A stretch of DNA of 64,000 nt from an uncultured Gemmatimonadales bacterium (GCA_963771275.1 CAVYSW010000003.1:257037-321036), one strand, 5' to 3'. Shown: positions 15,822 to 51,547, counted from the first letter of the stretch. Notes: a model not told the origin generated them from the sequence alone. Numbers and translations: made by a program.

Positions 15822-15825
15822 GGGA

Positions 15826-18072: not shown

Positions 18073-18074
18073 CG

Positions 18075-18530: not shown

Positions 18531-18568
18531 GCCTGCTTCCTCCTGGGGCGTGCCCCGGTCCGGACGGG

Positions 18569-25536: not shown

Positions 25537-25944
25537 TCAGGTCTTGGGTGCGGCGTGGCACAGGGTGCAGGTCTTCACATCCCAGCCCTTGTGGTTCGCC
25601 GGAGCCGCCTTGATCCCCTCCATCGCGCCACCGTGGCACATCAGGCACTGTTCCTTGCCGGCCGGGGAGTGCGCCATCGCGGGCGCGGCCGCCGTCTGCA
25701 TCGGCGAGTCCTTGGCATGGCACATCAGGCACTGGGCGTTGGTACGGCCCTGGTGGTCCTTCGGGGCCGCCTTGATGCCTTCCATGGCCCCACCGTGACA
25801 CATCAGGCACTGCTCTTTCCCCGCTGCGTCATGCGCAATCACCGGGGGCTTCTTGGGCGCCGCGGCCTGTGCCCACGCCGGGGACGCGACAGCGACCGCG
25901 GCGAGCGACAGGCCAAAGGCAAACACGATTCTCACGGCCTTCAT
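25537..25944 (-). CDS. small periplasmic tetraheme cytochrome c
   Basis: 135 aa with a signal peptide. The heme motifs are CLMCH (three times) and CTLCH. The 21-aa segment AGKEQCLMCHGGAMEGIKAAP occurs twice. Confidence 0.85.
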   Translation of the reverse strand: MKAVRIVFAFGLSLAAVAVASPAWAQAAAPKKPPVIAHDAAGKEQCLMCHGGAMEGIKAAPKDHQGRTNAQCLMCHAKDSPMQTAAAPAMAHSPAGKEQCLMCHGGAMEGIKAAPANHKGWDVKTCTLCHAAPKT

Positions 25945-26046
25945 TGTCCGGACCCTCCTCAGAAAGCGTTACATCCGTAAAAAAACGGATGGGGGAGGGG
26001 GCACGCAAGGGCCGCGCACACGCCCCCTCCGTAACCGGGCCAACCT

Positions 26047-26856: not shown

Positions 26857-28472
26857 CGCGCACCTCCCTCGGGAATCCGCAGGATTGCCGGCGGCAGGGT
26901 CGACCGGTCGGCGCTCGTGCCGAGCCCCAGGCGGATCCCGGCACTGAGCCGCACCTGGTTCCAGGAGAACTGCGCGGCATCGGGATACTCCGTTCCGCCG
27001 ACGACCACCTTGCGGTCGCCCCCGCGCGCCTCATCGTAGTACAGCACGCCACCGAACACCCGGAGCTCGTCGAGCACCTGCGCATCGACGTCGAGGGCGT
27101 ATTGCCAGACGCTCGCGTCGTTGAAGCGCAGCTCGAGCGCGCGCTGCAGGTTGGCGATGCTGCCGCGGACCGCCACCCGCGGGATCGGCCGCCAGAACAC
27201 GCTGCCGTCGATCCCCAGCGCCCCGGCGCCCGGGCCGGTCTCGATGTGGTAGTCCGCCGTCGCGATCAGATTCGCGGAGCGCATGTAGGTGGCCCCGAGA
27301 CTGCCGCGCCAGCCGGACGTCTCGATCGAAACCAACGGCGTTGCGGTCTCGGTGTTGGCGTACTCGTAGACCTCGCCCCGCGCTCGCACCTGCACGCGGT
27401 TCATCAGGTGCATGGTGAGCGACCCGAACGCCGCGTGGTACGGGACGGGACTGAACACGCCCCAGATGCTCCACGAGTCGAAGTGCGGCCGATACCGCCG
27501 GCCGCCCACCGCAGCCGTCGCCCCGGTCCCCGGAATCGCGACCGCGAGCTGGCCTTCGGCGCTGCCCCACTCGCCGAACACCAGGTCGTAGTCCGCGCCC
27601 CCGGACACGGTGACCCCCCGCCACGGGCGCAGCACCACGTCCGCGCCGAGCTGCTCCGACGCGACCCGGCTGGTGGTCCCCGACGGCCCCATGGCGTCCA
27701 TCTCGCGTTCGTACAGGACCGTGGCCTGCATCCACCGCAGGTTCCAGCCGACGTCGCCGCCGACCAGCACGCCGCGCTTGCTGGGACGAAACTCGTTCAG
27801 CGGATTGAGCAGGGAGTCGGTCACGCTCAGCAGGGCCCCGCGCGCCAGCGCCCACCCCCCGTACACCGCCGCGCTCACCTTGCCACTGAGCGGCCGCACA
27901 CGGACTCGGGCCCCGTCAAAGCCGGTGTATCCCAGGCGCGACGTTTCGATCAGGCGCCCACCCTGCGCCATCGCCAGGCCGCGCACATACTCGGCGTAGC
28001 CTTCGACGAGCTGCAGCGTGGGCTGGGTGGCCGGCCACGCGTCCGGATTGGCCAGGTCGGTCACCACGCGCGCGCGCGCCCGGGCGCTGAGCCCCGGAAC
28101 GCCGAAGTCCCACGCGGACAAATCGGCCGTCGTGACGAACGGCTGGCCCTGCTGCGCGGCGCCTGGCGTGTAGTAGCGACAATACGCGTCGCCGGTCGGG
28201 CAGGTCACCGCGTACCCATCCGCGGTCTGCAGGCCGCCCCCCGGTCCCAGCACGACGTCCGTGACCGGGACGCTGTCGAGCTGCCAGCCGCGATACTTCA
28301 CGGACTGGAATCGCGACTCGATGCGCACGCGGTACCCCTGGCCCCAGAGTGGAGCCGTCTGGAGCGCGAGCCCCACGAGCACCGCCAGCGCGAACACCCT
28401 GGACCGTCTCACCAGCCCTCCTCCGTGTGGGCAGCCCCGTCCGGCTGCCGGTTCCTCACCGATTCGCCTCAC
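26853..28472 (-). CDS. putative outer-membrane beta-barrel protein (porin-like)
   Basis: 539 aa. It has a signal peptide (RVFALAVLVGLALQTAPLWGQG), no TM helices and no CxxCH. Many short amphipathic strand-like segments are rich in G, Y, W and R (e.g. RVQVRARGEVYEY, WRGSLGATYMRSANLIATADYHIE). Confidence 0.5.
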   Translation of the reverse strand: MRRIGEEPAAGRGCPHGGGLVRRSRVFALAVLVGLALQTAPLWGQGYRVRIESRFQSVKYRGWQLDSVPVTDVVLGPGGGLQTADGYAVTCPTGDAYCRYYTPGAAQQGQPFVTTADLSAWDFGVPGLSARARARVVTDLANPDAWPATQPTLQLVEGYAEYVRGLAMAQGGRLIETSRLGYTGFDGARVRVRPLSGKVSAAVYGGWALARGALLSVTDSLLNPLNEFRPSKRGVLVGGDVGWNLRWMQATVLYEREMDAMGPSGTTSRVASEQLGADVVLRPWRGVTVSGGADYDLVFGEWGSAEGQLAVAIPGTGATAAVGGRRYRPHFDSWSIWGVFSPVPYHAAFGSLTMHLMNRVQVRARGEVYEYANTETATPLVSIETSGWRGSLGATYMRSANLIATADYHIETGPGAGALGIDGSVFWRPIPRVAVRGSIANLQRALELRFNDASVWQYALDVDAQVLDELRVFGGVLYYDEARGGDRKVVVGGTEYPDAAQFSWNQVRLSAGIRLGLGTSADRSTLPPAILRIPEGGAR

Positions 28473-28512
28473 GCGTTCCGCCGTGAGGGCTCGCTCCGCC
28501 CCGCGGCGCGGG

Positions 28513-31317
28513 TCAGCGGTAGCCGAACAGCATCGAATAGACGATCAGCGCAATCAGGGTCAACCCGACCGCCAGCGCGGTGAAGCCGAACACTTTGAAC
28601 GCACGCTCCAGCTTGGTCGGATAGGGCTCCACGAGCGACTTCTCCAGCTCGCCGCTCCGGACGAGCTCCTCGTACTCACGTGGCTTGTCCCGCTTGAGCT
28701 CTTCCAGCGGTACCCGTCCCGTGAAGATGACCGGGTCCATCGGGAACTTGTCCGGTCGGAAGTGCGTGTTGAAGAAGTGCACCGTGAAGATGAACGCCAC
28801 CGCCAGCAACGCCTCGTCGCTGTGCAGGATCGTCGCCACGTTCACGGTCCAGCCCGGCAGCACCTTCGTGAAGACCTCGGGGAACCACAGCAGCAGCCCC
28901 GTCGAGCCGATGATGAACATCCCCCAGAACACGGCGAAGTAGTCGAATTTCTCCCAGTACGTGAACCGCCCGTACGCCGGTCGCGGGCCGCGGCCGAAGA
29001 ACCACCGGACCGACTGCAGGAAATCCGTGAGATCCTGCTTGGTGAAGACCAGGGAGTCGTCGGTCTGCATGAAGCGCAGCCAGGAGAGCCCCGACGCGCG
29101 CTTGCGCGTGCGCACGTCCCACAGGTGCAGCGCGAAGATCGTGAGCAGTGTGACGGCGCCCAGGCGATGCAGGACGCCGGTCGTCGAGAAGCCCCCCACG
29201 AACGCCGCGGCGGCCTGGGCCCATCCCATGTAGGAGAACTTCAGCACCATGCCGGTCAGCGCGAGCGTGAAGAAGCTCAGCAGCATGACGCCGTGCATCG
29301 ACCGTTCCCACACGCTGAACCGACGATGCAGCTTCTCGCCGGGCGCGGCGGCGCGGTGATAGCGCCATTGCTCGGGCTCGCGCCACAGCCGCCACAGCCA
29401 CGCGAGCGTGTGCACGACGGCGAAGGTGAGGGTGCCGATGAGGAGCGCCGTCATGCCCCAGAACGTCCAGAACAGGAACGGGTACTTCCGGGCGTCGTGG
29501 TGGGTCGCGTGGGTCAGATAGCCGGCGAACCGCCGGTTGGCGCCCGCGTGGCACTTGGCGCACGTGCCCACGATGTTCCGCCGGCTGAGCGTGGAGGCGG
29601 GCTCGTCCGGGGGCAGGATGTTGTGCGCGCCGTGGCAATCCGAGCACTTCGCGGCCCCGGCGTCGCCCAGGCGCGACACCTTGCCGTGGAACGTGTCGAA
29701 GAACCGCTCCGCTTCCTGCTCATGGCACTGGCCGCACTGGTTCATCATCATCAGCCGGAAGTTCCCCGCGTCGGTCCGGCTGATGGTGTGCGACGTGTGG
29801 CAGTCCCGGCAGCTCGGGAGCCGCTTCGTCGTGTCGCCCCCGAGATCCGCGGTGGCATGGATGCTCTGGAGGAACTGCGCCTCGATGCCGTCGTGGCAGG
29901 CGCCGCACGTCGTGCCGACGTTGCGCGGGTTGATCGTCGAGAGCGTGTCCTCGGGAGGCAGCGGCCGGTGCGCCGTGTGGCAGTTGCTGCAGGTGGCGGT
30001 CACCAGGAGGCCGCTCTGGATCAGGCCCTTGCCGTGGATGCTCTCCTGGTAGGACCGCACGATGTCGGGATGGTCGGCGGCAATCCGCACGGCGGCCTTC
30101 TCGCCCGCCCGGTGACAGCGGGCGCAGAGCGCGGGCACGTTGCGCGGGAACGTCGGTGACGTCGGGTCCGTCCGGCCCTTGGTCGCGTGGTCGTCGTGGC
30201 AATCGAGACACTTCGGCGCGTCGGGATCCCCCTGGGCCGCCAGCTGGCCGTGCCGGCTCACCTGGTTGTCCGCGACCTCCTGCGCGTGGCACACGCTGCA
30301 GTCCACCCGGTCCGCCCGGGAGGTGGAGCACGCGCGCACGCGCGACGGCGTGACATCGGTGTGGCACTGGGCGCAGGCCGTCTGGGCGTGCATCGAGGCG
30401 GCGTACGCCTCGGGATCCACGTACAGGGATGTGGAGTCGCCGTTCGCGATCCCGCGCAGCTCGGGGTTGGCGTGGCAGCGGAAACAGTCCTGATTCGCGG
30501 CGCCAGCCGTGTAGAGCACCCGGCGGATCTTGTGCGGCGAATGACAGTCGACGCAGGCCGGAATTCGGTTGGGCTCGGACTCCCACAGGCGGCCTTCGAT
30601 CACCTTGCGATGGACCTGTTCGATCAGCCCGTGACACTGGGTGCAGGTCTTGGCGATGTTCGCGCGGTTGATGCTCGAGCGCGGGTCCGTGTGGGGGAGG
30701 ATGAGGTGGGACGTATGGCACGACGTACAGACCGCCGTGACGGTGAGCCCCTGCTGCAGCAGGCCCGCCCCATGGATCGACTCGGAGTAGTTCTCGAGGA
30801 TCCGGTCCTGGGGAATGTTGAAGCTGCGCGAAACCGGCGTCCCCTCGTGATGGCACTCCCCGCACAGGAACGGGATGTTGGTCACGGCCGTGCGGGACTT
30901 CGGGTCGCTGGGCGCCTTGACGTCGTGCGTCCCGTGGCAGTCGCGGCAGGTCGGCGCCAGCCGCTCGCCCCGCGCGGCCGCCTGGCCATGGAGCGACTCG
31001 GCGTGTTGCGTCGCCTGGGTGGGGTGGCAGCTGCCGCAGTCGACCTTCGGCCGATCCTGCGGGTGGGGGAATCCCAGGGCCCCGTGACACGTGGTGCAGC
31101 CCATGCCCTTGGCGCCGTGAATCGACCGGCCCAGGGCCTCCTGCGTAACGACGTAGCGGGTCGGGTTGGGCTTGGCCTTGAACAGCGCGGCGTTGCTGTG
31201 GCACATCAGGCAGGTGGCGTCGTCCTGCGCCGCTGCCGGGTGCGGCACGGTCAAGCTCGCACCGACGATCGCCGCCGCCACGCACGCGCGTGCTCCGGCA
31301 GGGCTCAGTATCCGCAC
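28513..31317 (-). CDS. 19-heme cytochrome c fused to a C-terminal cytochrome b-type membrane domain (CbcL-like)
   Basis: 934 aa with a signal peptide and 19 CxxCH motifs. The C-terminal polytopic domain (KYPFLFWTFWGMTALLIG..HGVMLLSFFTLALTG..) resembles FdnI/HydC/PhsC-type b cytochromes. Confidence 0.8.
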   Translation of the reverse strand: MRILSPAGARACVAAAIVGASLTVPHPAAAQDDATCLMCHSNAALFKAKPNPTRYVVTQEALGRSIHGAKGMGCTTCHGALGFPHPQDRPKVDCGSCHPTQATQHAESLHGQAAARGERLAPTCRDCHGTHDVKAPSDPKSRTAVTNIPFLCGECHHEGTPVSRSFNIPQDRILENYSESIHGAGLLQQGLTVTAVCTSCHTSHLILPHTDPRSSINRANIAKTCTQCHGLIEQVHRKVIEGRLWESEPNRIPACVDCHSPHKIRRVLYTAGAANQDCFRCHANPELRGIANGDSTSLYVDPEAYAASMHAQTACAQCHTDVTPSRVRACSTSRADRVDCSVCHAQEVADNQVSRHGQLAAQGDPDAPKCLDCHDDHATKGRTDPTSPTFPRNVPALCARCHRAGEKAAVRIAADHPDIVRSYQESIHGKGLIQSGLLVTATCSNCHTAHRPLPPEDTLSTINPRNVGTTCGACHDGIEAQFLQSIHATADLGGDTTKRLPSCRDCHTSHTISRTDAGNFRLMMMNQCGQCHEQEAERFFDTFHGKVSRLGDAGAAKCSDCHGAHNILPPDEPASTLSRRNIVGTCAKCHAGANRRFAGYLTHATHHDARKYPFLFWTFWGMTALLIGTLTFAVVHTLAWLWRLWREPEQWRYHRAAAPGEKLHRRFSVWERSMHGVMLLSFFTLALTGMVLKFSYMGWAQAAAAFVGGFSTTGVLHRLGAVTLLTIFALHLWDVRTRKRASGLSWLRFMQTDDSLVFTKQDLTDFLQSVRWFFGRGPRPAYGRFTYWEKFDYFAVFWGMFIIGSTGLLLWFPEVFTKVLPGWTVNVATILHSDEALLAVAFIFTVHFFNTHFRPDKFPMDPVIFTGRVPLEELKRDKPREYEELVRSGELEKSLVEPYPTKLERAFKVFGFTALAVGLTLIALIVYSMLFGYR

Positions 31318-33852: not shown

Positions 33853-33870
33853 GCAGAACGTTTCCGGAGG

Positions 33871-34441: not shown

Positions 34442-34475
34442 ACCGGGCGGCCGGCTGCAACGCCGACCGCCCGGT
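34442..34475. terminator. GC hairpin 1 between convergent operons
   Basis: accgggcgg (34442-50) pairs with ccgcccggt (34467-75), giving a 9-bp perfect stem. Confidence 0.5.
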
Positions 34476-34488
34476 CTCCCGTGAGGGC

Positions 34489-34514
34489 CCGGGGGCGGCA
34501 CATGCCGCCCCCGG
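34489..34514. terminator. GC hairpin 2 between convergent operons
   Basis: ccgggggcggc / gccgcccccgg form an 11-bp perfect stem with loop acat. Confidence 0.6.
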
Positions 34515-34521
34515 TGCATTC

Positions 34522-36453
34522 TCAGGCCCCGCGATCTCCGGGCGGCGGCGGCGCGCCGGTTTCCTCGTCGTACCACTTGGCGTGGTGCTCGCGCACCGCC
34601 CGCTTGCTGATCTTCCCGGTCAGCCAGGTCCAGCTCATCGGGTACTCCTCCGGATGGAAGATCACGAAGAAGAAGTGCCACACGATGATGGCGAGCGTCG
34701 CGAGCCACGCTTCGTAGTAGTGAATCGTCTGCGCCGCCGGGATCAGGAACGAGGGGAGGAACCTGGCCGCTACCGTCGGGAACCAGAGCACCAGCCCCGT
34801 CACGATCATGATGATCGTGCCCCAGATGAGCGCCCAGTACTCGGCCTTCTGCGAGTAGTCGTAGCGCCCGAACTGCGCTTTCTCCGTGCTGCGCCACGTG
34901 TAGAACCGCAGGTTCAGGACCAGGTCCTTGAGATCGCCCCACGTGGGCAGGATCGCACGGAACTCCTTCTTGCCGCGCCGCGTGAAGAAGACGTAGTACG
35001 CGTGGCTCAGCCCAACCAGGATCAGGATGACCGCAGCAACTCGGTGCACGTTGAGCCGGACCGGCTCGGTCAGTCCCACGGAAGCCAGCCAACGCACCCA
35101 CCAGGCGTCCGGGAAGCGCAGCGCGAATCCCGTGATGACCAGCAGGATGAAGGCGACGGTGAGGGCCAGGTGCTGCACGATCTGCACACGGTCGAATCGG
35201 ACCATCATCTCGGCGGTCGCTTCCTCCTTGCGTCGCTGCATCATGAAGAAGTTCATGATGACCAGGTTGTGCAGCACCATCCCGCCGAGGAGCCCGATAA
35301 TCAGCACGACATAGATGCTCCGGATCACGCGATTCACCGGGTTGGCGCTGATCGACGCCTTCTCGTGCGTGTAGCTCGCCGCGAAGCCCGCGTCCGCATT
35401 GGCGTGGCACTGGCGGCACGTGCTTACGACGTTGGCCGGACTGATGGTGGACAGGGAATCACTCGCCGGCAGGATCGAGTGGACGCCGTGGCAGCTGACG
35501 CACGTCGCCGCCCGCGCGTAGTTCCGCCTGACGGCCCAGCCGTGGTAGCTGTCCGCGTAGGAGCCGACGACGCCGCCCTGCAGGTTGTACTTCGCGACGA
35601 TCACCGGATCGTTGTGGCACTGCCCGCAGGTCTCGGTCGCGATGTGCGCCGCGAAGGTCTTGGCGTCGGGATTGCGCGGCGACAGAATGTGATGCTCGCC
35701 GTGACAGCTCGTGCACGTCGGCGCGTCGGTGACGCCGGCCTGCAGCGCCCGGCCGTGAATCGAGCCGTCGTACTGGAGCTCGATGTCGGGGTGGCACTGG
35801 CCGCACGTCGCCGCCACGTTGCGCGGGTTGATCCGCGACGTCGGATCCGCCGCGCCGAGGATGTCGTGGACGCCGTGGCAGTCCGCGCAGGAGGCCGCCG
35901 ACGCGACGCCGCGCCCCGTGCCCTGCCCGTGCACCGATTGGGCATAGTCCGTGAACGACTGCGGCAGCTTCACGATCTGGTCCGTGAGCAGGCCTGCCGT
36001 GCCGTGACACGTGGCACAGGTCCCCGGCAGGCGGACTTTGTGCGTCGGTGACCGCGGGTCGCTGCTGGCCAGCACGCCGTGGGCACCGTGACAGCTCACG
36101 CAGGTCGGCGCACGGGGGTTGCCGCGCGCCAGCGCGTAGCCGTGCAGGCTCTTGGCATACTTCGCCCCGACGTCCGCGTGGCAGCCGCTGCAGGCCAGCG
36201 GCTTCGCGTCCGGGGGGTGCGGGAAGGTCGTCATCGCCTGATGGCACATGCTGCACCGGACCCCGGCCGCCCCATGCACCGAGCCGTCGAGGCTGGCCTG
36301 CGCCACGACGAGGAGCGCGGAGTCCGGCTTCCCCTTGAAGAACCCCGGCTCCCCGTGACACATGAGGCAGTTGTCCTTCTCCTGGGCGGCTGCCACGCCC
36401 GCAACGATCAGCAGCGCCGTCGCGATCGGCAGCGCCCGCAGTCTGCTCCGCAT
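34522..36453 (-). CDS. 11-heme cytochrome c fused to a cytochrome b-type membrane domain (CbcL-like, second copy)
   Basis: From ATG 36453 (GGAGGAG upstream) the product is 643 aa with 11 CxxCH motifs. The membrane domain (IVQHLALTVAFILLVITGFALRF..) is colinear with the C-terminus of 28513-31317. Confidence 0.85.
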   Translation of the reverse strand: MRSRLRALPIATALLIVAGVAAAQEKDNCLMCHGEPGFFKGKPDSALLVVAQASLDGSVHGAAGVRCSMCHQAMTTFPHPPDAKPLACSGCHADVGAKYAKSLHGYALARGNPRAPTCVSCHGAHGVLASSDPRSPTHKVRLPGTCATCHGTAGLLTDQIVKLPQSFTDYAQSVHGQGTGRGVASAASCADCHGVHDILGAADPTSRINPRNVAATCGQCHPDIELQYDGSIHGRALQAGVTDAPTCTSCHGEHHILSPRNPDAKTFAAHIATETCGQCHNDPVIVAKYNLQGGVVGSYADSYHGWAVRRNYARAATCVSCHGVHSILPASDSLSTISPANVVSTCRQCHANADAGFAASYTHEKASISANPVNRVIRSIYVVLIIGLLGGMVLHNLVIMNFFMMQRRKEEATAEMMVRFDRVQIVQHLALTVAFILLVITGFALRFPDAWWVRWLASVGLTEPVRLNVHRVAAVILILVGLSHAYYVFFTRRGKKEFRAILPTWGDLKDLVLNLRFYTWRSTEKAQFGRYDYSQKAEYWALIWGTIIMIVTGLVLWFPTVAARFLPSFLIPAAQTIHYYEAWLATLAIIVWHFFFVIFHPEEYPMSWTWLTGKISKRAVREHHAKWYDEETGAPPPPGDRGA

Positions 36454-36548
36454 GACTCCTCCACCTTCGCGATTCCGCGGGGAGCGTGTTCGGCACCGGG
36501 CCCGGCCCGCGACGCCGCCGGGCCGGCCACTCCGGGTGCTCCCCCGAC

Positions 36549-38570
36549 CTACCCTCCCGCGCCGCTGAGCGGCGTCATCTGGTGGCACTGGTCGCACGCC
36601 ACCGGCGCGTTGTGCTGCACGCGATCCGTGTGGCACACCGTGCAGATCTGGCGCGACCACTCGGTGAGGCCGGCGACCTTGTCGCCATGGCAGCCCGTAC
36701 AGGGACGGTGGGCGATGGCCGCCTGCATGTGCTTGGCCTTGACCCCCTGGTCCGCGCGGTGGCACGCGAGGCAGGTGGCCGCCGGCAGGTGGTGCGCGCC
36801 GTGACAGTTGTCGCAGTTGAGATCCGCCGCGCGCATCGCGGGCGCCTGGTGACACACGGTGCAGGCGAACCCGATCGCCACGTGCGCCGGGTGCGGAAAG
36901 TCGCCCGCCGGCCGCGGGATCACGCCGGCCGGCACCGCGTTGGACCCGGTGTGGCAGTGCAGGCAGGTCGCCGGCTCCGCGGCGCGGTGATGACAGCCCT
37001 GGCAGTCCGCGCTGGAGCGCAGCGTGATCTTGCCGTGGTCGTCGAGCGGCGTGTGACAGGCGGTGCACGGGAGGCCGGCGCCCAGGTGCGGCTCGTGCGC
37101 GAAGCGCGCGCCCTGAAAGACGCCCGCCTGACGCTCGACGGCGAGGTGACACTGGAGGCAGGCGCTGCGGTCGAGGGCGGGACCGAGATCCACGCGCCCG
37201 ACGTCGAACGGGAGTCCGCCCGCCGCCACCGCCCGGCGGGTCAGGTCCACCGCGGCGTGCAGCAGCCGATCGGCGTACCCCACGTTGTGCGCGCCGCGGC
37301 CGACGCGCACGAGCTCGACGTTCTCCCGCGCGAGCCCCAGCAGGCTGTCCGCCGCCCTGCGGCCCGCCGCCGTGCCCGCGGCGCGCACCGCTTCGGCGCC
37401 GCGCACAACCCGCTCGACCCGCGCGAGGCGCCGCGTCATTTCCTCCTGCCAGCTGGGCAGGATGTCCGCGTAGCGCGTCCCGTGGCAGGCCATGCAGGAC
37501 GCCGCTCCCGCGACCTGCACGTTCTCGTGTCCTCGCGTCCGCCGGTTCAGCTCGTGGCAACTCTTGCACGAGACCTGCGCGCGGAACATCGCGCTGGGCA
37601 GGGACTCCGCCCCGTGCCCGCCGACGCCCGCGAGCAGCCGCTGCTGCGCCGTGTGCACGCCCTGATGGCACGATGCACAGTCAAGGGACTCGGTGCCCGT
37701 CGCCATCCCGGGCGGCATGACGACGCGATGCTCGATGGGGTCGTGGCACTGCGTGCACTCGACCTTGTGCTCCGTGATGTGCTTGCGGTGCAGCAGCGAC
37801 GTATTGCCGAACTCCTGCAGCCGCGCCGGCTCGTTGTGGCAGTTGAAGCAGCGCGACTGGTCCACGCCGCCCGTGCCCTGCACCACCTGGCTGTGGCAGG
37901 AGAGACAGGAGACCAGGTCCCGCACGAACTGCGGGTGGTCGATCACCACGCCGCCCGCTTGCTCCAGCCGCGGCGGGGCGGGATGGCACCCGATGCAGCC
38001 CGCCACCGGCTCGGCGGTCCGCCGCTCCTTGAAGTGGCAGAGGAAGCAGGTCTCCTCGGTGACCGCGACGTGGGCGCCCTGCACGATCTGCGAATGGCAG
38101 CTGGTGCATCGCAGCTGCTTGCCGCGCCGCAACTCGCCCAGGTGGTCGGCGTGACTGAACCGGACCCCCTTGAAATCGACCTCCGACGACAGCTTCGCCT
38201 CGACGTGACAGCCCGAGCGCAGACACGCGGCGTCGTCGATCTCGGCCCAGGGCTTCTTCATGCCGTACTGCCTGGTGATGTACTTCACGACCTGGTTGGC
38301 CGCCTGGAACTTGCCCATCGCCTCCGCCTTGATGCCCGGCGCATAGTGGCAGAGGATGCACTTCACGTCCTTGTGGCTGGACGTCTTCCAGGACTCGTAG
38401 TACGGCACCATGTTGTGGCAGTTCTTGCAGAAGCTTGGCTGGCCGCTGTACTCGACGAACCCCACCGTGCCGGCCGTCAGCAGGATCACGCCCGCGATGG
38501 TCAGCTGCACGAGCAGCCGCAGCCACCGCCGCCGTCGCCGGGGCGCGGGCACCGGCGTCCCGCTCGTCAT
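36549..38570 (-). CDS. NapC/NirT/NrfH-like membrane-anchored multiheme cytochrome, 21 CxxCH plus 1 CxxxxCH
   Basis: From ATG 38570 (ATGA overlap) the product is 673 aa. An N-terminal TM helix is followed by FCKNCHNMVPYYESWKTSSHKDVKCILCH, typical of the NapC/NirT family. Confidence 0.85.
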   Translation of the reverse strand: MTSGTPVPAPRRRRRWLRLLVQLTIAGVILLTAGTVGFVEYSGQPSFCKNCHNMVPYYESWKTSSHKDVKCILCHYAPGIKAEAMGKFQAANQVVKYITRQYGMKKPWAEIDDAACLRSGCHVEAKLSSEVDFKGVRFSHADHLGELRRGKQLRCTSCHSQIVQGAHVAVTEETCFLCHFKERRTAEPVAGCIGCHPAPPRLEQAGGVVIDHPQFVRDLVSCLSCHSQVVQGTGGVDQSRCFNCHNEPARLQEFGNTSLLHRKHITEHKVECTQCHDPIEHRVVMPPGMATGTESLDCASCHQGVHTAQQRLLAGVGGHGAESLPSAMFRAQVSCKSCHELNRRTRGHENVQVAGAASCMACHGTRYADILPSWQEEMTRRLARVERVVRGAEAVRAAGTAAGRRAADSLLGLARENVELVRVGRGAHNVGYADRLLHAAVDLTRRAVAAGGLPFDVGRVDLGPALDRSACLQCHLAVERQAGVFQGARFAHEPHLGAGLPCTACHTPLDDHGKITLRSSADCQGCHHRAAEPATCLHCHTGSNAVPAGVIPRPAGDFPHPAHVAIGFACTVCHQAPAMRAADLNCDNCHGAHHLPAATCLACHRADQGVKAKHMQAAIAHRPCTGCHGDKVAGLTEWSRQICTVCHTDRVQHNAPVACDQCHQMTPLSGAGG

Positions 38571-39808
38571 CCGCGTGCCCCGTGGTCCCGGCGGCGATCG
38601 GCGATCCGGATCCAGGCGAGCGCCACCAGCGCGAGCGCAAGGAACCACACCGGCACGAGCAGCAGCTTGTGCTCCCACTCGTTCTCGCCGGCCGCCGCGG
38701 CCGCTTCGTCGATCGTACGGGTGGCGGAGGCGACGCGCAGCTCGAGATCCTCCAGCGTCGCGAGATCGAGATCGTGCTGCACCAGCACGACCTGGCGATA
38801 CCAAGTGCGGGCGTCCTCATAGCGGAGCCGGCTGTCGGTCACATCCCGGCCTTTGTGGATCAGCACGTCGATGGCGCGCTGCGCCTCGAGCAGGTCATTC
38901 GCCGCGCGCGCGATCCGCGCCTCGAGCTCCACTCCCAGGGCCGCCGGCGCGCTCCCCGCCGGATGGCACTTGAGGCAGGTCTCGGCGATCGAGTCCTGCG
39001 GCACGCGCTCGGTGCCGTGGTTGCTGTGGCAGCCGACGCACCCGGCGAGCCGGCCTTGCTTGGCCGGCGCGCCGTGCGGCCCGTCGAAGAACGCCTGGCG
39101 CACGAGCGTGTGGCAGCGCCCGCACACATCGGCGATCTGGGTGACGCCCGGCGGCAGCGCCGAATGCGAGCCGTGGCAGCCGACGCAGGTGGGGGCGGCG
39201 AAGTTCTCGTCCTGAAACACCGCGACGCCGTGCGCGCTCGAGACATACTGCGTGAACTGATCCGTCGGCAGCCCGTACTTGCCCATCAGCTTCGCGTCCG
39301 CGTGGCAGCGCGCGCACAGCACCGGGATGTTCGCCGGGTAGGAGTTGCTGCGCGCGTCCGTCGCCCGGCGGATCAGGTGCGATTCGTGACAGTCGGTGCA
39401 GGTCGGCGCATCGGGATCACCCCGCTCGAGCAGCTGCCCGTGGCGACTGGCCCGCAGGCCGGCCAGCTGATCGTACGGCAGGCCGAACTGCCGCATCTTG
39501 TTCGGATCGGCGTGGCAGGAAGCGCACAACGTCGCGATCTGCAGTTTGCTGGGCCGCCCGAGGAAGTGCCCCGCGTGTGCGCCGGGCAGCTCCTGCGCGG
39601 CCGGATTGCCGCCGTGACAGTTGTGGCACTGGATGCCCCGCTCGGCATGGACCCCGGACAGGAAGGCGCGGCGGTGCTCGGCGTGGCACACCACGCAGGA
39701 ATACGAGCTGTCGATCGCAAGCGACGGGGCCTGTGCCGCCAGCGCCCGGAAGGGCCCCACCAGCAGGCCGACCCCCAGCGCCGCACGCCCGACGAGCCGT
39801 GGCGTCAT
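38567..39808 (-). CDS. nonaheme cytochrome c with C-terminal TM anchor (paralog of 18569-19849)
   Basis: From ATG 39808 (ATGA overlap) the product is 413 aa with 9 CxxCH motifs. It is colinear with the other nonaheme (CHNCHGGNP vs CADCHGGDP; APTCVGCHGSHSALPPGV vs APTCNDCHGNHGAAPPGV). The C-terminal TM helix is LLLVPVWFLALALVALAWI. Confidence 0.85.
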   Translation of the reverse strand: MTPRLVGRAALGVGLLVGPFRALAAQAPSLAIDSSYSCVVCHAEHRRAFLSGVHAERGIQCHNCHGGNPAAQELPGAHAGHFLGRPSKLQIATLCASCHADPNKMRQFGLPYDQLAGLRASRHGQLLERGDPDAPTCTDCHESHLIRRATDARSNSYPANIPVLCARCHADAKLMGKYGLPTDQFTQYVSSAHGVAVFQDENFAAPTCVGCHGSHSALPPGVTQIADVCGRCHTLVRQAFFDGPHGAPAKQGRLAGCVGCHSNHGTERVPQDSIAETCLKCHPAGSAPAALGVELEARIARAANDLLEAQRAIDVLIHKGRDVTDSRLRYEDARTWYRQVVLVQHDLDLATLEDLELRVASATRTIDEAAAAAGENEWEHKLLLVPVWFLALALVALAWIRIADRRRDHGARG

Positions 39809-41058
39809 CGGGACCTCCCCGCGGTGGTCGAATCGGTGGAGTCCGGGTGCAGCGGCGCGATCCCTCCCGCGTCCGCGCCGAACGGGACGGCCCGGCCCGG
39901 GGTCTCCATCGGCGTCGCATGGGGCACCGGTCCCTGCGACTGCAGCGTGCGGCCGACGCCCCACGTCAGCAGCGTCACGGCGAAGAACGCAATGCCGGCC
40001 GCGAGCACCAGGGGGCGCTCGCGCAGCCGCCGCTCAGGACCGCGGTCGAACAGCGGCAGCACCGCGAGCACGGCGCCGAGCAGGACGAACAGCGCCACGC
40101 CCCACCCACCCAGGAAGTGCCCGAGCGTGCGTCCGATGTCGACAATCACCCAGGTGGAGATCAGGTCGCGGGGCAACGCCCCAGGGTCCGCGGGCGGCCC
40201 GACGGGACGGGTGAACCAGGTCGCGAGCGTGATGACCACGGCGAGTGTGACCGCGGCGACCATCAGCGACCGCATCAGGTGCACCGGATAGAAGCGCACG
40301 CCGGGCTCGGACGTCTCGCGTCCGGGCGGCGGGGTGATGCCGTGCCGCCGGATCAGGGTGAAGTGGAGCCCCAGCAGGACGAAGAGCAGCCAGGGCAGCA
40401 GCACCACGTGGAGCGCGAACTGCCGGCTCAGCGTGGAGCCGGACACGAGCGAGTCGCCGCGCAGCAGCTCCGTGGCGAGACCGCCCACCACCGGGATCGC
40501 GGACAGCAGCTCGAGGCCTTCCGAGAAGGTCCAGTACGCCCACTGATCCCAGGGCAGCAGGTAGCCCGACGCCCCAAACGCCAGGACGACGCCGAACAGC
40601 CCGACCCCGATCAGCCAGTTGGTCTCGCGCGGCGGCTTGTACGCCCCGTCGAAGAACACGCGGGCGAGGTGCGCCAGCAGCAGGACGACGAGGAGGCTGG
40701 CGCACCAGACGTGCAGTCCCCGAATCAGCCAGCCGAACGGCGCCTGCGACTGGATGTACTGGACGCTGGCGTAGGCCTCCTGGGCCGAGGGGCGGTAGTA
40801 GAACACCAGCAGGACCCCGGTCGCCACCTGCACCATCAGCAGCAGGTAGGCGATGCTCCCGAACGCGTGCCGCCAGGTGATGTGGGCCGGGAGGCGGTAG
40901 TTGAGCGCCTTGCGGAGCGACACGTCGATGCGCGAGCGGCCGTCGATCGGCCCGTAGAGCAGTCCGAGAAACCGGGCGATGCCGAGCAGGCTGGGGTCGG
41001 TCGACTGCCGGAGGTCCTCCCAGAACTGCGCGAGCCAGCCGCGGATCCGTCCGGTCAT
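39805..41058 (-). CDS. cytochrome b homolog lacking the PEWY Qo motif
   Basis: From ATG 41058 (GAAGGAG upstream) the product is 417 aa. The His pairs HVWCASLLVVLLLAH and HVVLLPWLLFVLLGLH are retained. The position aligned to RPEWYF of copy 1 reads ISTWVI. Confidence 0.85.
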   Translation of the reverse strand: MTGRIRGWLAQFWEDLRQSTDPSLLGIARFLGLLYGPIDGRSRIDVSLRKALNYRLPAHITWRHAFGSIAYLLLMVQVATGVLLVFYYRPSAQEAYASVQYIQSQAPFGWLIRGLHVWCASLLVVLLLAHLARVFFDGAYKPPRETNWLIGVGLFGVVLAFGASGYLLPWDQWAYWTFSEGLELLSAIPVVGGLATELLRGDSLVSGSTLSRQFALHVVLLPWLLFVLLGLHFTLIRRHGITPPPGRETSEPGVRFYPVHLMRSLMVAAVTLAVVITLATWFTRPVGPPADPGALPRDLISTWVIVDIGRTLGHFLGGWGVALFVLLGAVLAVLPLFDRGPERRLRERPLVLAAGIAFFAVTLLTWGVGRTLQSQGPVPHATPMETPGRAVPFGADAGGIAPLHPDSTDSTTAGRSR

Positions 41059-41510
41059 GGCGCCTCCTTCACGTAGACCACGTCTCCGTGCACAAAGACA
41101 CCGAACCGGCGGAGCGGCACCGTCGTGAGGCCGGTCACCACGTTGCCGTGCAGGTCGTACACGAGGTGGCTGCACGGGGAGACGATCTGCAGCCCCTGCT
41201 CGTCCCATTTCAGCAGGCAGCCATCGCTGGGGGCGGTCCCCTCCACCGCGTAAAAGGTGGCCGCGGACCGCCGCACGACCAGCACCACGCGCGCACCCCA
41301 GTTCACCACCCGGCCCGTGCCGACGGGGAAATCGGCGACCCGCGCCACGCGGATCGTGGGCTGGAGCTCCGGGATGTGGAGGCGCTGCGCGGGGAGCAGA
41401 TACAGGGCGATCACGAGCAGCACCGCGAACGCCGTGACCGCGAGGACGCCGGCGAGCAGCAGCCGGTTCAGCTCGGAGCCGGATTCCCGTACGTGCACCG
41501 TGTCAGGCAT
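41055..41510 (-). CDS. Rieske-fold protein lacking 2Fe-2S ligands
   Basis: From ATG 41510 the product is 151 aa, the same length as the true Rieske, with an N-terminal TM helix. Box I reads APSDGC instead of CTHLGC, and box II reads SPCSHL instead of CACHNG. Confidence 0.75.
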   Translation of the reverse strand: MPDTVHVRESGSELNRLLLAGVLAVTAFAVLLVIALYLLPAQRLHIPELQPTIRVARVADFPVGTGRVVNWGARVVLVVRRSAATFYAVEGTAPSDGCLLKWDEQGLQIVSPCSHLVYDLHGNVVTGLTTVPLRRFGVFVHGDVVYVKEAP

Positions 41511-41719
41511 GCTCGCCCTCCTCCCCCGCCGCGTCTCCATCGCGGCCCAGCCATGCCAGAAGCCCCACCACGGGCGGCTGCGCGGCCACGACTGCTCCAA
41601 ACGTGGCAGCCGGCTCCACCACCCGAAGGAGGGGAGCCGGCCGCCGCTTCAATCCACTGTCGTTCCGGGAGCCGGCGGGCCCGGGACTACCCGGACCCGC
41701 CGGGCTCCACTACCAACGA

Positions 41720-43372
41720 TCACCGCAGCTTCCTGAGGCCCGCGGGCGCCGTGAGCTGCTGGCTCAGGGTCACGGGCGGAGCCGGGACGTTGTAGTACGT
41801 CCTCAGATAGTCGATCGACGCAAGCAGCAGCGCCTCGAGCAGGAATGGGTTGTGCGCCCCCTGCCCGCTGGAGATATGGCCCGTGTTCGAGCCGCCGCTC
41901 GGCGACGTGCAGGTCTGCGACGCGCAGCTGTACTGCTCGGGGACCTTGAAGCTCAGCCAGGCGGGGCGCTCGCTGGTGGCCGCCAGCTGGGCGTTCCAGA
42001 TGGCGCCCTCGGCCGGTGTCAGCACGGAGTCATACAGGTTTATCTGCCGGCGCTCGTTGTTCGCAACGGCCTGCGCCAGGATCTCCGGCAGAACCCCGCG
42101 ATCCGTGGACTCCATGAGCGAATCGTTGTCCACGTCGGTCCACAGGGCGTCGGTCAGGGAGTTCATCCGGGCCCGCACCACCTGGAACGCCGTCCGCGCC
42201 GCGTCGGCGCTGCCGTGGCAGCCCGACACCGCACAGGAGCGGAAGTCGCGCTGGGAGTCCGGGCAGTCCGCGCCGGGGATCGGCTCGCCCGTGCTCTGAT
42301 TGATGCAGGGAACCGCCTGGAACGTGTGCCCCACGTAGTTCTTGACGAACGTGCTGTCCGCGGCGTTGATCGCGAACCCGGCGACGTGGCACGCGGCACA
42401 CTGCCGCGGATTCGCGGTGGTGTGCGAGCCCACGACCCGGTCGGTGTACGGCCAGTTGGGCGGCAGCCAGCCCGCTTCCTCGTCCATCACGATGGACCCC
42501 TGCGCGCCATGCGGGCCGCGACGGGTGATGCCGCTGGCGCCGGGCTCACCTTCACGCGAGTGGCAGCGCGCGCACAGCTGCTCCAGGCTCGACTCGTCGA
42601 GCGGGCGGCGGAGCTGACCCTCGTTGGTGGCGTCGTGCGGATCATGGCAGACGGCGCAGACGATCGGCTGGTAGTCGCCCGCGATGTCCTTCTCCAGGAA
42701 GACGGTGGGATCGCCGCCGGTCTGGCCCGAGGGACGTGGATCGAGCCCGCTCATCGCCACGCGAATCGCCGCGCGACCCTCGTGGCAGTTCATGCACGGA
42801 TCGCGCGAGCCTTCGGCGAGGTAGGCGTCTCCGCCGTAGCCGTGCCTGGATTGGCTCCACTCTTCGATAAACGGATGGTGCACGTCGGTGTGACACTCGC
42901 CGCAGCCGTTGGCGGAGTCGATCCCGACCGCGATCGCCGCGAGCGGTGCCACGACGCTGCCGCCGAACACGGACTCGACGTGGGCCAGGCCGGGGCCGTG
43001 GCAGCTCTCGCACTGCACGTCGAAGTAGGCGGTGTCCGCCACCTTGTTGTGCCCCGCCGCCGAGTCGACCGCGTTGCCGAGGTCACTCACCGTGTGGCAG
43101 CCCTCGCACATCGCGTCGGCGTGACCGGAGGCTTGGAGGTCCGCCCAGGCGCTGGCGTGCTTGGTCTGCACCCACGATGCCTGCATGTCGGCGTGGCAGT
43201 TGCCGCACGTGGTCTGCTTGTCGGCAGGTGTGTAGTAGCCGAGGTACCCCGCGGCCGCGTCCGGCGGGGGGTTGAATACGGGCGTTTCGACGTACTGGAT
43301 CTCGTGCTCCGTACAGGCGCCGAGCAGTACGACCAGCGCCGCCGCGCTCGTCCAACGAATCAGGCTCGTCAC
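41720..43372 (-). CDS. multiheme cytochrome c lipoprotein (8 CxxCH plus 1 CxxxxCH)
   Basis: GTG 43372 with AAGGAG upstream. The lipobox is VLLGAC. The product is 550 aa with a heme-free helical C-terminal region. The family (Otr/HAO-like vs other) cannot be resolved by eye. Confidence 0.8.
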   Translation of the reverse strand: MTSLIRWTSAAALVVLLGACTEHEIQYVETPVFNPPPDAAAGYLGYYTPADKQTTCGNCHADMQASWVQTKHASAWADLQASGHADAMCEGCHTVSDLGNAVDSAAGHNKVADTAYFDVQCESCHGPGLAHVESVFGGSVVAPLAAIAVGIDSANGCGECHTDVHHPFIEEWSQSRHGYGGDAYLAEGSRDPCMNCHEGRAAIRVAMSGLDPRPSGQTGGDPTVFLEKDIAGDYQPIVCAVCHDPHDATNEGQLRRPLDESSLEQLCARCHSREGEPGASGITRRGPHGAQGSIVMDEEAGWLPPNWPYTDRVVGSHTTANPRQCAACHVAGFAINAADSTFVKNYVGHTFQAVPCINQSTGEPIPGADCPDSQRDFRSCAVSGCHGSADAARTAFQVVRARMNSLTDALWTDVDNDSLMESTDRGVLPEILAQAVANNERRQINLYDSVLTPAEGAIWNAQLAATSERPAWLSFKVPEQYSCASQTCTSPSGGSNTGHISSGQGAHNPFLLEALLLASIDYLRTYYNVPAPPVTLSQQLTAPAGLRKLR

Positions 43373-45021: not shown

Positions 45022-45022
45022 G

Positions 45023-49229: not shown

Positions 49230-51547
<2,318 letters not shown>

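What the first reader, a model, noticed from the sequence alone, without database searches (positions are those of the whole stretch)
34522..43372. Mega-operon combining three different quinol-interacting modules with 51 heme-c sites
Six same-strand genes make up the operon:
- A lipoprotein with 8+1 hemes (41720-43372).
- A Rieske-fold protein.
- A cytochrome b.
- An anchored nonaheme.
- A NapC/NirT-like 21+1-heme protein.
- A CbcL-like 11-heme/cytochrome b fusion.
The junctions at 41055-58, 39805-08 and 38567-70 are all ATGA overlaps. A bc-type cytochrome b, a NapC-type tetraheme-like anchor and an FdnI-type b domain are normally alternative ways of tapping the quinone pool. Finding all three translationally chained, with a heme wire long enough to span the periplasm many times over, is not an arrangement I recognise. 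Two components are paralogs of genes elsewhere in the window: the nonaheme at 18569-19849 and the CbcL-like gene at 28513-31317. This suggests modular duplication and rewiring.
Basis: partly seen in the sequence, partly recalled or inferred. Interest (0 to 1): 0.8.

Follow-up and report, generated by a model that had tools for sequence, protein, structure and literature searches.

The report
Iron-sulfur-less bc-type multihaem respiratory module
The six cytochrome genes are real, but the conserved unit is a four-gene module found across the soil phylum Gemmatimonadota: a relative of respiratory complex III that has lost its iron-sulfur centre and carries 31 c-type haems instead, probably to connect the membrane quinone pool to electron transfer at the cell surface.

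Summary
Six minus-strand genes, 51 haem-c motifs, three ATGA overlaps and both paralog pairs are confirmed. The "six-gene mega-operon" reading holds only in part.

In 65 of 65 related Gemmatimonadota loci with enough flanking DNA, only four genes stay together, with junctions of about 0 nt:
- a Rieske-like protein
- a cytochrome b
- a C-terminally anchored nonahaem
- a 22-haem NrfH/NapC-like cytochrome

The lipoprotein cytochrome lies upstream in 29 of 55 loci. It is separated from the core by a gap of about 140-210 nt that tends to carry strong hairpins. The CbcL-like gene follows in only 15 of 65 loci.

The core is an ancient paralog (26-38% identity) of the canonical Rieske/cyt b/nonahaem complex encoded in the same window. 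It has lost three of the four [2Fe-2S] ligands, including both His. It has also lost the Tat signal and the PEWY motif (now STWV). All four b-haem histidines are kept.

A predicted outer-membrane barrel (best fold match MtrB) with further multihaem genes follows the core in 28 of 40 loci.

Best reading: an FeS-free quinol:multihaem-cytochrome oxidoreductase at the inner-membrane end of an extracellular electron-transfer route. Direction and energetics are unknown. I found no description of it in the searchable literature. I rate it a new variant of a known kind.

The parts
41720..43372 (-). g1: lipoprotein multihaem cytochrome c (8 CXXCH + 1 CX4CH). A frequent but not constant upstream neighbour of the core.
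   Evidence: g1-like gene directly upstream in 29 of 55 loci. Ninth site is CXXCH in 13 of 29 orthologs.
41599..41710 (-). Two strong GC hairpins just after the g1 stop codon. Candidate terminator, attenuator or mRNA-stabilising structure between g1 and the core.
   Evidence: -87.4 kcal/mol over 133 nt, z=-5.9. In relatives the same gap has median z of -2.05, and 14 of 27 are below -2.
41055..41510 (-). g2: TM-anchored Rieske-fold subunit without [2Fe-2S] ligands and without a Tat signal.
   Evidence: fold homology. (first Cys ligand and both His ligands replaced in all 68 orthologs and in all 14 representative clusters with E<=3e-17). (no twin-arginine motif, against 27 of 29 canonical orthologs).
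39805..41058 (-). g3: cytochrome b (b6 plus subunit-IV type, about 7 TM helices). Both b haems retained, PEWY replaced by STWV, no haem-ci cysteine.
38567..39808 (-). g4: nonahaem cytochrome c with signal peptide and C-terminal TM anchor, topologically like cytochrome c1. Paralog of the canonical complex's nonahaem.
36549..38570 (-). g5: 22-haem cytochrome. NrfH/NapC-type N-terminal TM helix and CXXCHXM first haem, then 12 haems, a haem-free helical bundle (residues 371-451), and 10 more haems.
34522..36453 (-). g6: CbcL/MtoC-type fusion of an 11-haem cytochrome c with an FdnI-type dihaem cytochrome b. An accessory neighbour that is possibly co-transcribed here.
   Evidence: Ortholog downstream in 15 of 65 loci. 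The g5-g6 gap is unstructured.
34442..34524 (-). Two strong hairpins after the g6 stop codon. Likely the end of the transcription unit, convergent with a plus-strand gene.
   Evidence: -69 kcal/mol over 86 nt, z=-6.5.
25537..31317 (-). Context: second CbcL-like gene (28513-31317, 19 haems plus b), predicted outer-membrane beta-barrel (26853-28403), 9-haem (26047-26859) and 4-haem (25537-25944) cytochromes. Together a porin-cytochrome-like set.
   Evidence: AF2 pLDDT 78 with about 26 strands. Best PDB fold hit MtrB 6R2Q_B. Barrel plus 9-haem lie downstream of g5 in 28 of 40 loci.
16975..21039 (-). Context: canonical Rieske/cyt b operon. Order: four-haem (four CXXCH) class-I cytochrome c, nonahaem, Rieske (Tat RRRF, CTHLGC..CACH), cyt b (PEWY). 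This is the paralogous parent type of g2-g4.

Best explanation
The conserved entity is a four-subunit inner-membrane complex encoded by g2-g5. It is a derived paralog of the Gemmatimonadota Rieske/cytochrome b/nonahaem complex.

Shown:
- The Rieske-fold subunit has become cofactor-less: three of the four [2Fe-2S] ligands (both His and one Cys) and the Tat signal are gone.
- The periplasmic-side (Qo) loops of cytochrome b are remodelled, with PEWY changed to STWV.
- Both b haems are kept.
- A 22-haem subunit has been added whose N-terminus is an NrfH/NapC-type membrane anchor with the CXXCHXM first haem.

Inferred:
- The complex exchanges electrons between the menaquinone pool and a periplasmic multihaem network, most likely oxidising quinol.
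- The c haems of g5 or g4 take the acceptor role that the Rieske cluster plays in bc1/b6f.
- Haems bL and bH provide a transmembrane branch to an N-side quinone site.
- Electrons pass on to accessory cytochromes (g1 and others) and a porin-cytochrome conduit in the outer membrane, that is, extracellular electron transfer.

g1 and g6 are separately evolving neighbours from the same respiratory island. They are not obligatory subunits. g6 is an independent CbcL-type quinol oxidoreductase.
For: Co-conservation:
- g2-g3-g4 lie directly upstream of g5 in 65 of 65 loci with enough DNA. Median junctions are +1, -2.5 and +3 nt, and many are 4-nt overlaps.
- g5 relatives occur in at least 575 GTDB species, almost all Gemmatimonadota.
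- The cyt b and g5 homolog lists share many contigs.

Paralogy to the canonical complex in the same window: 26%, 38% and 33% identity.

Loss of the FeS centre:
- In 68 of 68 orthologs, CTHLGC..CxCH has become S-P-x-D-G-C..S-P-C-x-[Y/H].
- The 14 closest representative clusters show the same pattern, while more distant hits are canonical.
- The Tat motif is absent, against 27 of 29 canonical orthologs.
- A third, divergent Rieske/cyt b pair in relatives keeps every motif, which serves as an internal control.

Cytochrome b:
- All four His are invariant, and PEWY is [ST][TS]W[VI].
- Fixed differences concentrate in the P-side CD loop (9) and EF loop (3).

g5:
- PF03264 scores above the gathering cut-off.
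- It aligns to NrfH 2J7A_C including the CXXCHXM motif, and M54 is invariant.

Link to extracellular electron transfer:
- The predicted barrel's best fold hit is MtrB.
- It sits next to 9- and 4-haem cytochromes.
- Barrel plus cytochrome follow the core in 28 of 40 loci.
Against: - There is no transcript, protein or activity data. Function and direction of electron flow rest on gene context only.
- The g5 AlphaFold model was poor (pLDDT 57.6), so no haem-to-Qo geometry could be assessed.
- The 80 loci analysed are the closest of at least 575, so the synteny figures may not hold for the more distant genomes.
- In 12 of 40 loci with enough downstream DNA, no barrel gene follows the core within the 8-10 kb available.
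- Low-potential bis-His c haems would be poor substitutes for a high-potential Rieske centre in a bifurcated Q cycle.
- The P-side CD loop is still highly conserved (LPWDQWAYW). The Qo pocket may therefore be functional in a way not captured here.
Confidence: 0.6

Rival explanations
1. Same four-subunit complex, but working inward. Electrons from extracellular or periplasmic donors (reduced humics, Fe(II), a partner cell, a cathode) enter the c-haem chain, cross the membrane through haems bL and bH, and reduce menaquinone at the N-side site. This would be an FdnI-like redox-loop half, or a pmf-assisted uphill route.
For: - Both b haems and most N-side positions are conserved, while the P-side loops are remodelled.
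- CbcL/MtoC relatives occur in both Fe(III) reducers and Fe(II) oxidisers (PMC6295460).
- Porin-cytochrome sets are known in oxidisers as well (PMC5566968).
Against: - No marker of lithotrophy or carbon fixation was seen in the window.
- The invariant NrfH-type CXXCHXM haem is typical of quinol dehydrogenases (from my own knowledge of NrfH).
- Direction cannot be read from sequence.
Confidence: 0.25
2. One reading: all six genes form one operon encoding a single mega-complex that joins three quinol-interacting modules.
For: - All six genes are on the same strand.
- The g5-g6 gap is short (95 nt) and unstructured.
- Strong hairpins appear only after g6.
- The close relatives L003, L004, L005 and several others keep all six genes in order.
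Against: - The g6 ortholog follows the core in 15 of 65 loci and g1 precedes it in 29 of 55. Only 7 of 43 loci have both.
- Complete genomes CP070815 and CP070722 have the core without g1 or g6.
- Two strong hairpins separate g1 from g2.
- g6 is a self-sufficient CbcL-type architecture (PMC6295460).
Confidence: 0.1
3. The complex serves periplasmic respiration of a soluble substrate (for example nitrogen oxides, sulfur compounds or selenite/tellurite) rather than extracellular electron transfer. The multihaem proteins would then be donors to a periplasmic reductase encoded elsewhere.
For: - g3 scores almost as well against ExtP, the b cytochrome of the Geobacter selenite/tellurite reduction operon, as against b6 (213 against 220 bits).
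- Rieske/cyt b modules are linked to Nap, Hao or Nar in Caldithrix and Methanoperedens (PMC5317091, PMC4683180).
- 12 of 40 loci lack a barrel downstream within the 8-10 kb available.
Against: - No catalytic reductase gene lies in or next to the core in the window or in the loci inspected.
- The recurrent partner is a large barrel plus multihaem cytochromes.
Confidence: 0.15
4. g2-g5 is a decaying, non-functional duplicate of the canonical bc complex.
For: Loss of the Rieske ligands, the Tat motif and PEWY.
Against: - Intact ORFs in at least 575 species.
- Invariant b-haem histidines and all 22 g5 haem motifs.
- The replacement motifs are themselves conserved: DGC..SPC, STW..D.
- Tight gene junctions are maintained.
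Confidence: 0.02

Closest known systems
Canonical Rieske/cytochrome b complex (bc1/b6f type), here the copy at window 16975-21039
   Same: - Homologous cytochrome b with two bis-His b haems.
- Homologous TM-anchored Rieske-fold subunit.
- Homologous C-terminally anchored nonahaem cytochrome.
- b6-like Hx13H/Hx14H spacing.
   Different: - No [2Fe-2S] ligands, no Tat signal, and PEWY replaced by STWV.
- Different gene order.
- An extra 22-haem NrfH-like subunit instead of a class-I cytochrome c.
Geobacter GSU2930-2937 cluster (Cbc6 / CbcMNOPQR; NCBIfam ExtM-ExtS)
   Same: - A b6-type cytochrome b embedded among several multihaem cytochromes (2, 10, 12 and 5 haems) beside an outer-membrane conduit cluster.
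- Proposed quinol:cytochrome c oxidoreductase of unknown role (PMC2825233, PMC13591261).
- g3 scores 213 bits on ExtP.
   Different: - Geobacter keeps a Rieske Fe-S protein (GSU2933).
- g3 is below the ExtP cut-off (290 bits).
- g2, g4 and g5 have no meaningful ExtO, ExtN or ExtM match.
- Geobacter has no NrfH-type 22-haem subunit.
NrfH / NapC / CymA tetrahaem quinol dehydrogenases
   Same: - One N-terminal TM helix, then the first haem.
- CXXCHXM motif aligned to NrfH 2J7A_C.
- Pfam NapC/NirT score above cut-off.
   Different: - 673 aa and 22 haems instead of about 160-200 aa and 4 haems.
- Third motif is CX4CH.
- Always encoded with a cytochrome b, a Rieske-like protein and a nonahaem.
- Below the NrfH equivalog cut-off (51 against 134 bits).
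CbcL / MtoC / MtrH family (for g6 and 28513-31317)
   Same: Periplasmic multihaem domain fused to an FdnI/HydC-type dihaem b. The family spans 3-23 haems and 15 phyla including Gemmatimonadetes (PMC6295460).
   Different: - 11 and 19 haems, against 9 in G. sulfurreducens CbcL.
- Not directly compared with GSU0274.
Non-canonical Rieske/cyt b complexes with multihaem subunits (Methanoperedens MPEBLZ_00816-00823; anammox R/b complexes, the latter from my own knowledge)
   Same: - A Rieske/cyt b core with additional multihaem cytochromes.
- Several Rieske/cyt b paralogs in one organism (PMC4683180).
   Different: As described, those keep a Rieske iron-sulfur protein. None is reported with an NrfH-type subunit.

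Membership tests
Rieske/cytochrome b complex (bc1/b6f) | Cytochrome b with four His ligands for haems bL and bH | tested here: met
   Hx13H and Hx14H present. All four His invariant in 73 sequences. Cytochrome_B scores 168 bits.
Rieske/cytochrome b complex (bc1/b6f) | Rieske subunit with CxH...CxxH [2Fe-2S] ligands | tested here: not met
   First Cys ligand and both His ligands replaced in 68 of 68 orthologs. The same is seen in the alignment to 8HN2_A and in the 14 nearest representative clusters. A divergent third Rieske in relatives keeps them, as a control.
Rieske/cytochrome b complex (bc1/b6f) | Twin-arginine (Tat) export signal on the Rieske subunit | tested here: not met
   SRRxF present in 27 of 29 canonical orthologs. 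The g2 family has GFN(D/E)LLLG at the equivalent position.
Rieske/cytochrome b complex (bc1/b6f) | PEWY (or close variant) Qo-site motif in the ef loop | tested here: not met
   Aligned positions read [ST][TS]W[VI] in 72 orthologs. Only the Trp is kept.
Rieske/cytochrome b complex (bc1/b6f) | Membrane-anchored c-type cytochrome subunit encoded with the core | tested here: met
   g4 has 9 haems and a C-terminal TM helix. It is 33% identical to the nonahaem of the canonical operon.
NapC/NirT/NrfH quinol dehydrogenases (g5 N-terminus) | N-terminal TM helix followed by the family's haem-binding region, scoring above the Pfam cut-off | tested here: met
   PF03264 scores 33.9 bits against 24.1 and covers profile positions 9-168 of 174. 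TM helix at residues 11-42.
NapC/NirT/NrfH quinol dehydrogenases (g5 N-terminus) | NrfH-type CXXCHXM first haem motif | tested here: met
   CKNCHNM aligns to CTSCHIM of 2J7A_C. C48, C51, H52 and M54 are invariant in 32 sequences.
NapC/NirT/NrfH quinol dehydrogenases (g5 N-terminus) | Small tetrahaem protein; NCBIfam NrfH equivalog score | tested here: not met
   673 aa and 22 motifs. TIGR03153 scores 51 bits against a cut-off of 134.2.
NapC/NirT/NrfH quinol dehydrogenases (g5 N-terminus) | Quinol dehydrogenase activity | not testable with these tools
   Needs biochemistry.
CbcL/MtoC/MtrH (g6) | Signal peptide, multihaem c domain and C-terminal FdnI/HydC-type dihaem b with 5-6 TM helices | tested here: met
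   11 CXXCH. Ni_hydr_CYTB scores 63 bits (cut-off 30.1). FdnI 1KQF_C gives E=8.5e-11. About 5-6 hydrophobic segments.
CbcL/MtoC/MtrH (g6) | Sequence relatedness to G. sulfurreducens CbcL itself | not tested
Geobacter Cbc6 / ExtMNOPQS | ExtP equivalog score and a Rieske Fe-S partner | tested here: not met
   ExtP scores 213 bits against a cut-off of 290. g2 lacks the cluster ligands.
Porin-cytochrome conduit (context, 25537-28403) | Large outer-membrane beta-barrel encoded next to periplasmic or exposed multihaem cytochromes | tested here: met
   AF2 model with pLDDT 78 and about 26 strands. Best Foldseek hit is MtrB 6R2Q_B at E=5.8e-7, and all other hits are outer-membrane barrels. Adjacent 9- and 4-haem genes. 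The TM-score is only 0.42, so this is barrel-level similarity and not proof of an MtrB homolog.
Single six-gene operon | Co-conservation and tight coupling of all six genes | tested here: not met
   The core is intact in 65 of 65 loci, g1 is present in 29 of 55 and g6 in 15 of 65. Hairpins follow g1. Transcription itself was not testable.

The most novel reading that the evidence does not exclude
A natural "haem-only" complex III. A Met-ligated NrfH-type c haem (or a g4 haem) sits at a remodelled Qo pocket (STWV) and replaces the Rieske [2Fe-2S] cluster as first electron acceptor. Haems bL and bH still carry the second electron across the membrane. Gemmatimonadota would then run a Q-cycle-like or pmf-coupled quinol/multihaem exchange without any iron-sulfur centre, dedicated to extracellular electron transfer.
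Probability: 0.2. Interest if true: 0.85.

Novelty: new variant of a known kind. Interest (0 to 1): 0.6.

Why it matters
The Rieske iron-sulfur protein is regarded as the defining partner of cytochrome b in every bc1/b6f-type enzyme. It is central to the bifurcated Q cycle.

This is a phylum-wide, strongly conserved relative that keeps the Rieske fold but discards the cluster, its Tat export signal and the PEWY motif, and gains an NrfH-type multihaem subunit. That makes it a natural experiment on what the cytochrome b scaffold can do without FeS.

It also gives Gemmatimonadota a concrete candidate inner-membrane gate for extracellular electron transfer. The phylum is abundant in soils and sediments and has few cultured members, and this capacity is barely discussed for it. 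Public records annotate the genes only generically: "cytochrome bc complex cytochrome b subunit", "NapC/NirT family cytochrome c", "formate dehydrogenase gamma subunit", "hypothetical protein".

Tried and rejected
- AlphaFold2 of g5 with a 32-sequence alignment gave pLDDT 57.6. Only the TM helix and a haem-free helical bundle were confident, so I did not use the model for fold search.
- The sigma-70 promoter scan found nothing, and the T-tract terminator scan found only weak sites in this 70% GC DNA. Rfam and tRNA scans were empty.
- Literature searches found no description of the four-gene module or of a naturally cluster-less Rieske subunit. Terms were Gemmatimonadota/Gemmatimonadetes with multihaem, cytochrome b, Rieske and extracellular electron transfer, plus "Rieske-less"/"lacking the Rieske". 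Dibrova et al. 2013 is not held.
- PCC3/PCC4 of He et al. 2017 were considered and rejected. Their inner-membrane protein is a 5-TM FRD-like protein, not a bc-type cytochrome b.
- A recent duplication was rejected, because g3 is equally distant from its paralog and from cyanobacterial b6.
- The pseudogene idea was rejected on conservation.
- My first by-eye guess that PEWY aligned to "EPGVR" was wrong. The family alignment places it at STWV.
- Correlating identities among the core genes across loci was uninformative, because there was too little spread.

Full report
**Observation**

The window is 67-75% GC, and its proteins find named relatives only in Gemmatimonadota. Six minus-strand genes lie at the stated coordinates:

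| Gene | Coordinates | Product |
|---|---|---|
| g1 | 41720-43372 | lipoprotein, 8 CXXCH + 1 CX4CH |
| g2 | 41055-41510 | Rieske-like, one TM helix |
| g3 | 39805-41058 | cytochrome b |
| g4 | 38567-39808 | 9 haems, C-terminal TM helix |
| g5 | 36549-38570 | NapC/NirT-type N-terminus, 21 CXXCH + 1 CX4CH |
| g6 | 34522-36453 | 11 haems + FdnI-type b |

All six products match, residue for residue, proteins already called on a 1.88-Mb public contig. Pfam, NCBIfam and PDB sequence searches confirm every domain assignment. The 51 haem motifs are not chance. Overlapping off-frame ORFs have none, and the counts are conserved in orthologs. The three ATGA overlaps are present.

**What is co-conserved**

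I fetched the neighbourhoods of cytochrome b homologs. I then scanned one genome per GTDB species with a g5 alignment. At least 575 genomes encode a relative, and 78 of the best 80 carry a Gemmatimonadota-lineage name. One of the remaining two is an "Akkermansiaceae" bin that is fully syntenic and probably mis-binned. The other is labelled only "uncultured bacterium".

A tblastn map of all window proteins onto 83 loci shows the following:
- g2-g3-g4 lie directly upstream of g5 in 65 of 65 loci with enough DNA. Median junctions are +1, -2.5 and +3 nt.
- A g1-like gene is directly upstream in 29 of 55 loci, with a median gap of 140 nt.
- A g6 ortholog (at least 50% identity) is downstream in 15 of 65 loci, with a median gap of 145 nt.
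- Of 43 loci with both flanks available, 7 have both genes, 15 have only g1, 3 have only g6 and 18 have neither.
- Two complete chromosomes (CP070815, CP070722) have the core alone.

In the window, the 209-nt g1-g2 gap holds two very stable hairpins (z=-5.9). The 95-nt g5-g6 gap is unstructured (z=0.6). Two more hairpins follow g6 (z=-6.5). Relatives show the same contrast: the g1-g2 gaps have median z of -2.05 with 14 of 27 below -2, and the g5-g6 gaps have median z of -0.07.

The conserved unit is therefore g2-g5. g1 is probably its own cistron. g6 may be co-transcribed here, but it is an optional neighbour.

**What the core is**

The window also encodes a canonical complex on the same strand:
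- a four-haem (four CXXCH) class-I cytochrome c at 19846-21039
- a nonahaem at 18569-19849
- a Rieske protein at 18075-18530, with Tat RRRF, CTHLGC and CACH
- a cytochrome b at 16975-18078, with PEWY

g2, g3 and g4 are paralogs of its three core subunits, at 26%, 38% and 33% identity. The split is old. The N-terminal half of g3 is 44% identical to cyanobacterial b6 and 45% to its own paralog, and both copies are conserved across the sampled genomes.

The derived copy differs in four linked ways:

1. In 68 of 68 g2 orthologs, the first Cys ligand and both His ligands of the [2Fe-2S] cluster are replaced. CTHLGC..CxCH has become S-P-x-D-G-C..S-P-C-x-[Y/H], and only two cysteines remain invariant. 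The alignment to the solved ISP 8HN2_A shows the same.
2. An exhaustive search of 1.84 billion representatives finds about 14 clusters with this pattern, after which canonical Rieske proteins begin.
3. The twin-arginine motif, present in 27 of 29 canonical orthologs, is absent at the equivalent place in g2. That fits a protein that no longer needs cofactor-loaded export.
4. In cytochrome b the four haem histidines are invariant, but PEWY reads [ST][TS]W[VI]. The haem-ci cysteine of b6 is Leu. Fixed differences from the canonical family concentrate in the periplasmic CD loop (9) and EF loop (3).

A third, more divergent Rieske/cyt b pair found in some relatives keeps every canonical motif. The losses are therefore specific to this family and are not an alignment artefact.

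**The added subunit**

g5 passes the Pfam NapC/NirT threshold. It aligns to NrfH (2J7A_C) through the TM helix and the first two haem motifs, including the NrfH-type CXXCHXM motif. C48, C51, H52 and M54 and essentially all 22 motifs are invariant in 32 relatives.

The protein has 12 haems, a confidently predicted haem-free helical bundle (residues 371-451) and then 10 more haems. The rest of the model is unreliable. Its C-terminal part resembles ActA of alternative complex III.

**Context**

Downstream on the same strand lie a second CbcL-like gene (19 haems plus b), a 516-aa protein with no Pfam match, and 9-haem and 4-haem cytochromes. The unannotated protein is predicted to be a barrel of about 26 strands (pLDDT 78). 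Its best PDB match is MtrB, and all other matches are outer-membrane barrels. The TM-score is only 0.42, so this is barrel-level similarity.

This barrel plus the 9-haem gene follow the core in 28 of 40 loci with at least 8 kb downstream. In many relatives the order is: canonical bc, g1, core, g6, second CbcL, barrel, cytochromes. In the window, a plus-strand Fer4/NrfD/cytochrome c unit (31541-34431) is wedged between g6 and the second CbcL gene.

The region is thus a respiratory island with at least five quinone-interacting modules, of which the finding covers three.

**Mechanism**

Shown: the subunit set, their membrane topology signals, retention of the b haems, loss of FeS, Tat and PEWY, the NrfH-type haem-1 motif, and the genomic link to a porin-cytochrome-like set.

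Inferred: the complex exchanges electrons between menaquinone and periplasmic multihaem proteins. A c haem substitutes for the Rieske cluster, and the b haems give a transmembrane branch. I favour quinol oxidation feeding extracellular electron transfer.

The reverse direction, or a periplasmic soluble acceptor, cannot be excluded. No catalytic reductase is encoded nearby.

**Comparison with known systems**

The closest described arrangement is the Geobacter GSU2930-2937 cluster (Cbc6). It has a Rieske protein and a cytochrome b among 2-, 10-, 12- and 5-haem cytochromes, and its role is still unknown (PMC2825233, PMC13591261). g3 scores 213 bits on the corresponding ExtP model, below its cut-off.

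Other precedents and related reports:
- Non-canonical Rieske/cyt b clusters with pentahaems exist in Methanoperedens (PMC4683180).
- CbcL relatives with 3-23 haems are known in 15 phyla (PMC6295460).
- A 2026 MAG survey noted petB/petC genes inside some porin-cytochrome clusters without further analysis (PMC13264449).

None of the arrangements above that I checked is reported with a cluster-less Rieske subunit or an NrfH-type 22-haem partner. Targeted searches found no such report. That covers only the held library.

**Verdict**

The real entity is a four-gene, phylum-wide, FeS-free variant of the Rieske/cyt b complex with accessory neighbours. It is a new variant of a known kind and of moderate to high interest.

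Noticed in passing
window 16975-21039 (-): A complete canonical Rieske/cyt b operon: a four-haem (four CXXCH) class-I cytochrome c, a nonahaem, a Rieske protein with Tat signal and full ligands, and a cyt b with PEWY. It is the paralogous counterpart of g2-g4 and often lies directly upstream of g1 in relatives.
   Followed up: yes
window 25537-31317 (-): A porin-cytochrome-like set: a 19-haem CbcL-like fusion, a predicted ~26-strand outer-membrane barrel with no Pfam match (best fold hit MtrB), a 9-haem cytochrome and a 4-haem cytochrome.
   Followed up: partly
window 31541-34431 (+): A Fer4_11 protein, an NrfD-type membrane protein (real frame about 32515-33852) and a small c-type cytochrome on the opposite strand, wedged between g6 and the second CbcL gene. 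In several relatives (for example L009, L021, L036) g6 is followed directly by that gene, so this looks like an insertion or rearrangement. CP070815 has a similar MHC/Fer4/NrfD unit right after the core.
   Followed up: partly
L025, L028, L031, L034, L043, L045, L082 (about 17.0-18.8 kb in each locus): A third, divergent Rieske/cyt b pair (29-39% identity to the window's copies) directly after the barrel and 9-haem genes. In the four checked (L025, L028, L045, L082) it keeps CTHLGC, CPCH, RRxF and PEWY.
   Followed up: partly
window 36549-38570, g5 residues 371-451: A haem-free three-helix bundle predicted with pLDDT above 90 splits the 22 haems into blocks of 12 and 10. Its role is unknown.
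   Followed up: no
P0402, P0404; L005 upstream of g2: Some g2 relatives carry an N-terminal cytoplasmic CxxC...CxxC zinc-ribbon-like extension before the TM helix.
   Followed up: no
P0415 and P0422-P0432: Other, more distant Rieske-like groups also lack one or both His ligands. P0415 reads CPRTGC..CPCDY. A 216-aa group reads CT[FY]..C..CPCHG. Cluster loss in Rieske folds may have happened more than once.
   Followed up: no
L004, L015, L082: g1-like lipoprotein cytochrome genes occur in two or three tandem copies upstream of the core.
   Followed up: no
window 13785-16308 (-): The cytochrome c maturation genes CcmF (13785-15980) and CcmE (15826-16308) lie next to the canonical bc operon. A DsrE-like gene sits at 16582-16935 (+).
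   Followed up: no
L067 (CAXMRU010000218.1): The contig is labelled Akkermansiaceae, but it is fully syntenic with the Gemmatimonadota loci and 52-63% identical to them. It is probably a mis-binned contig.
   Followed up: no
window 43528-51547: The housekeeping genes glpK-like, rho, recF and gyrB flank the island on the high-coordinate side. The same flank occurs in the 92%-identical relative L003.
   Followed up: no
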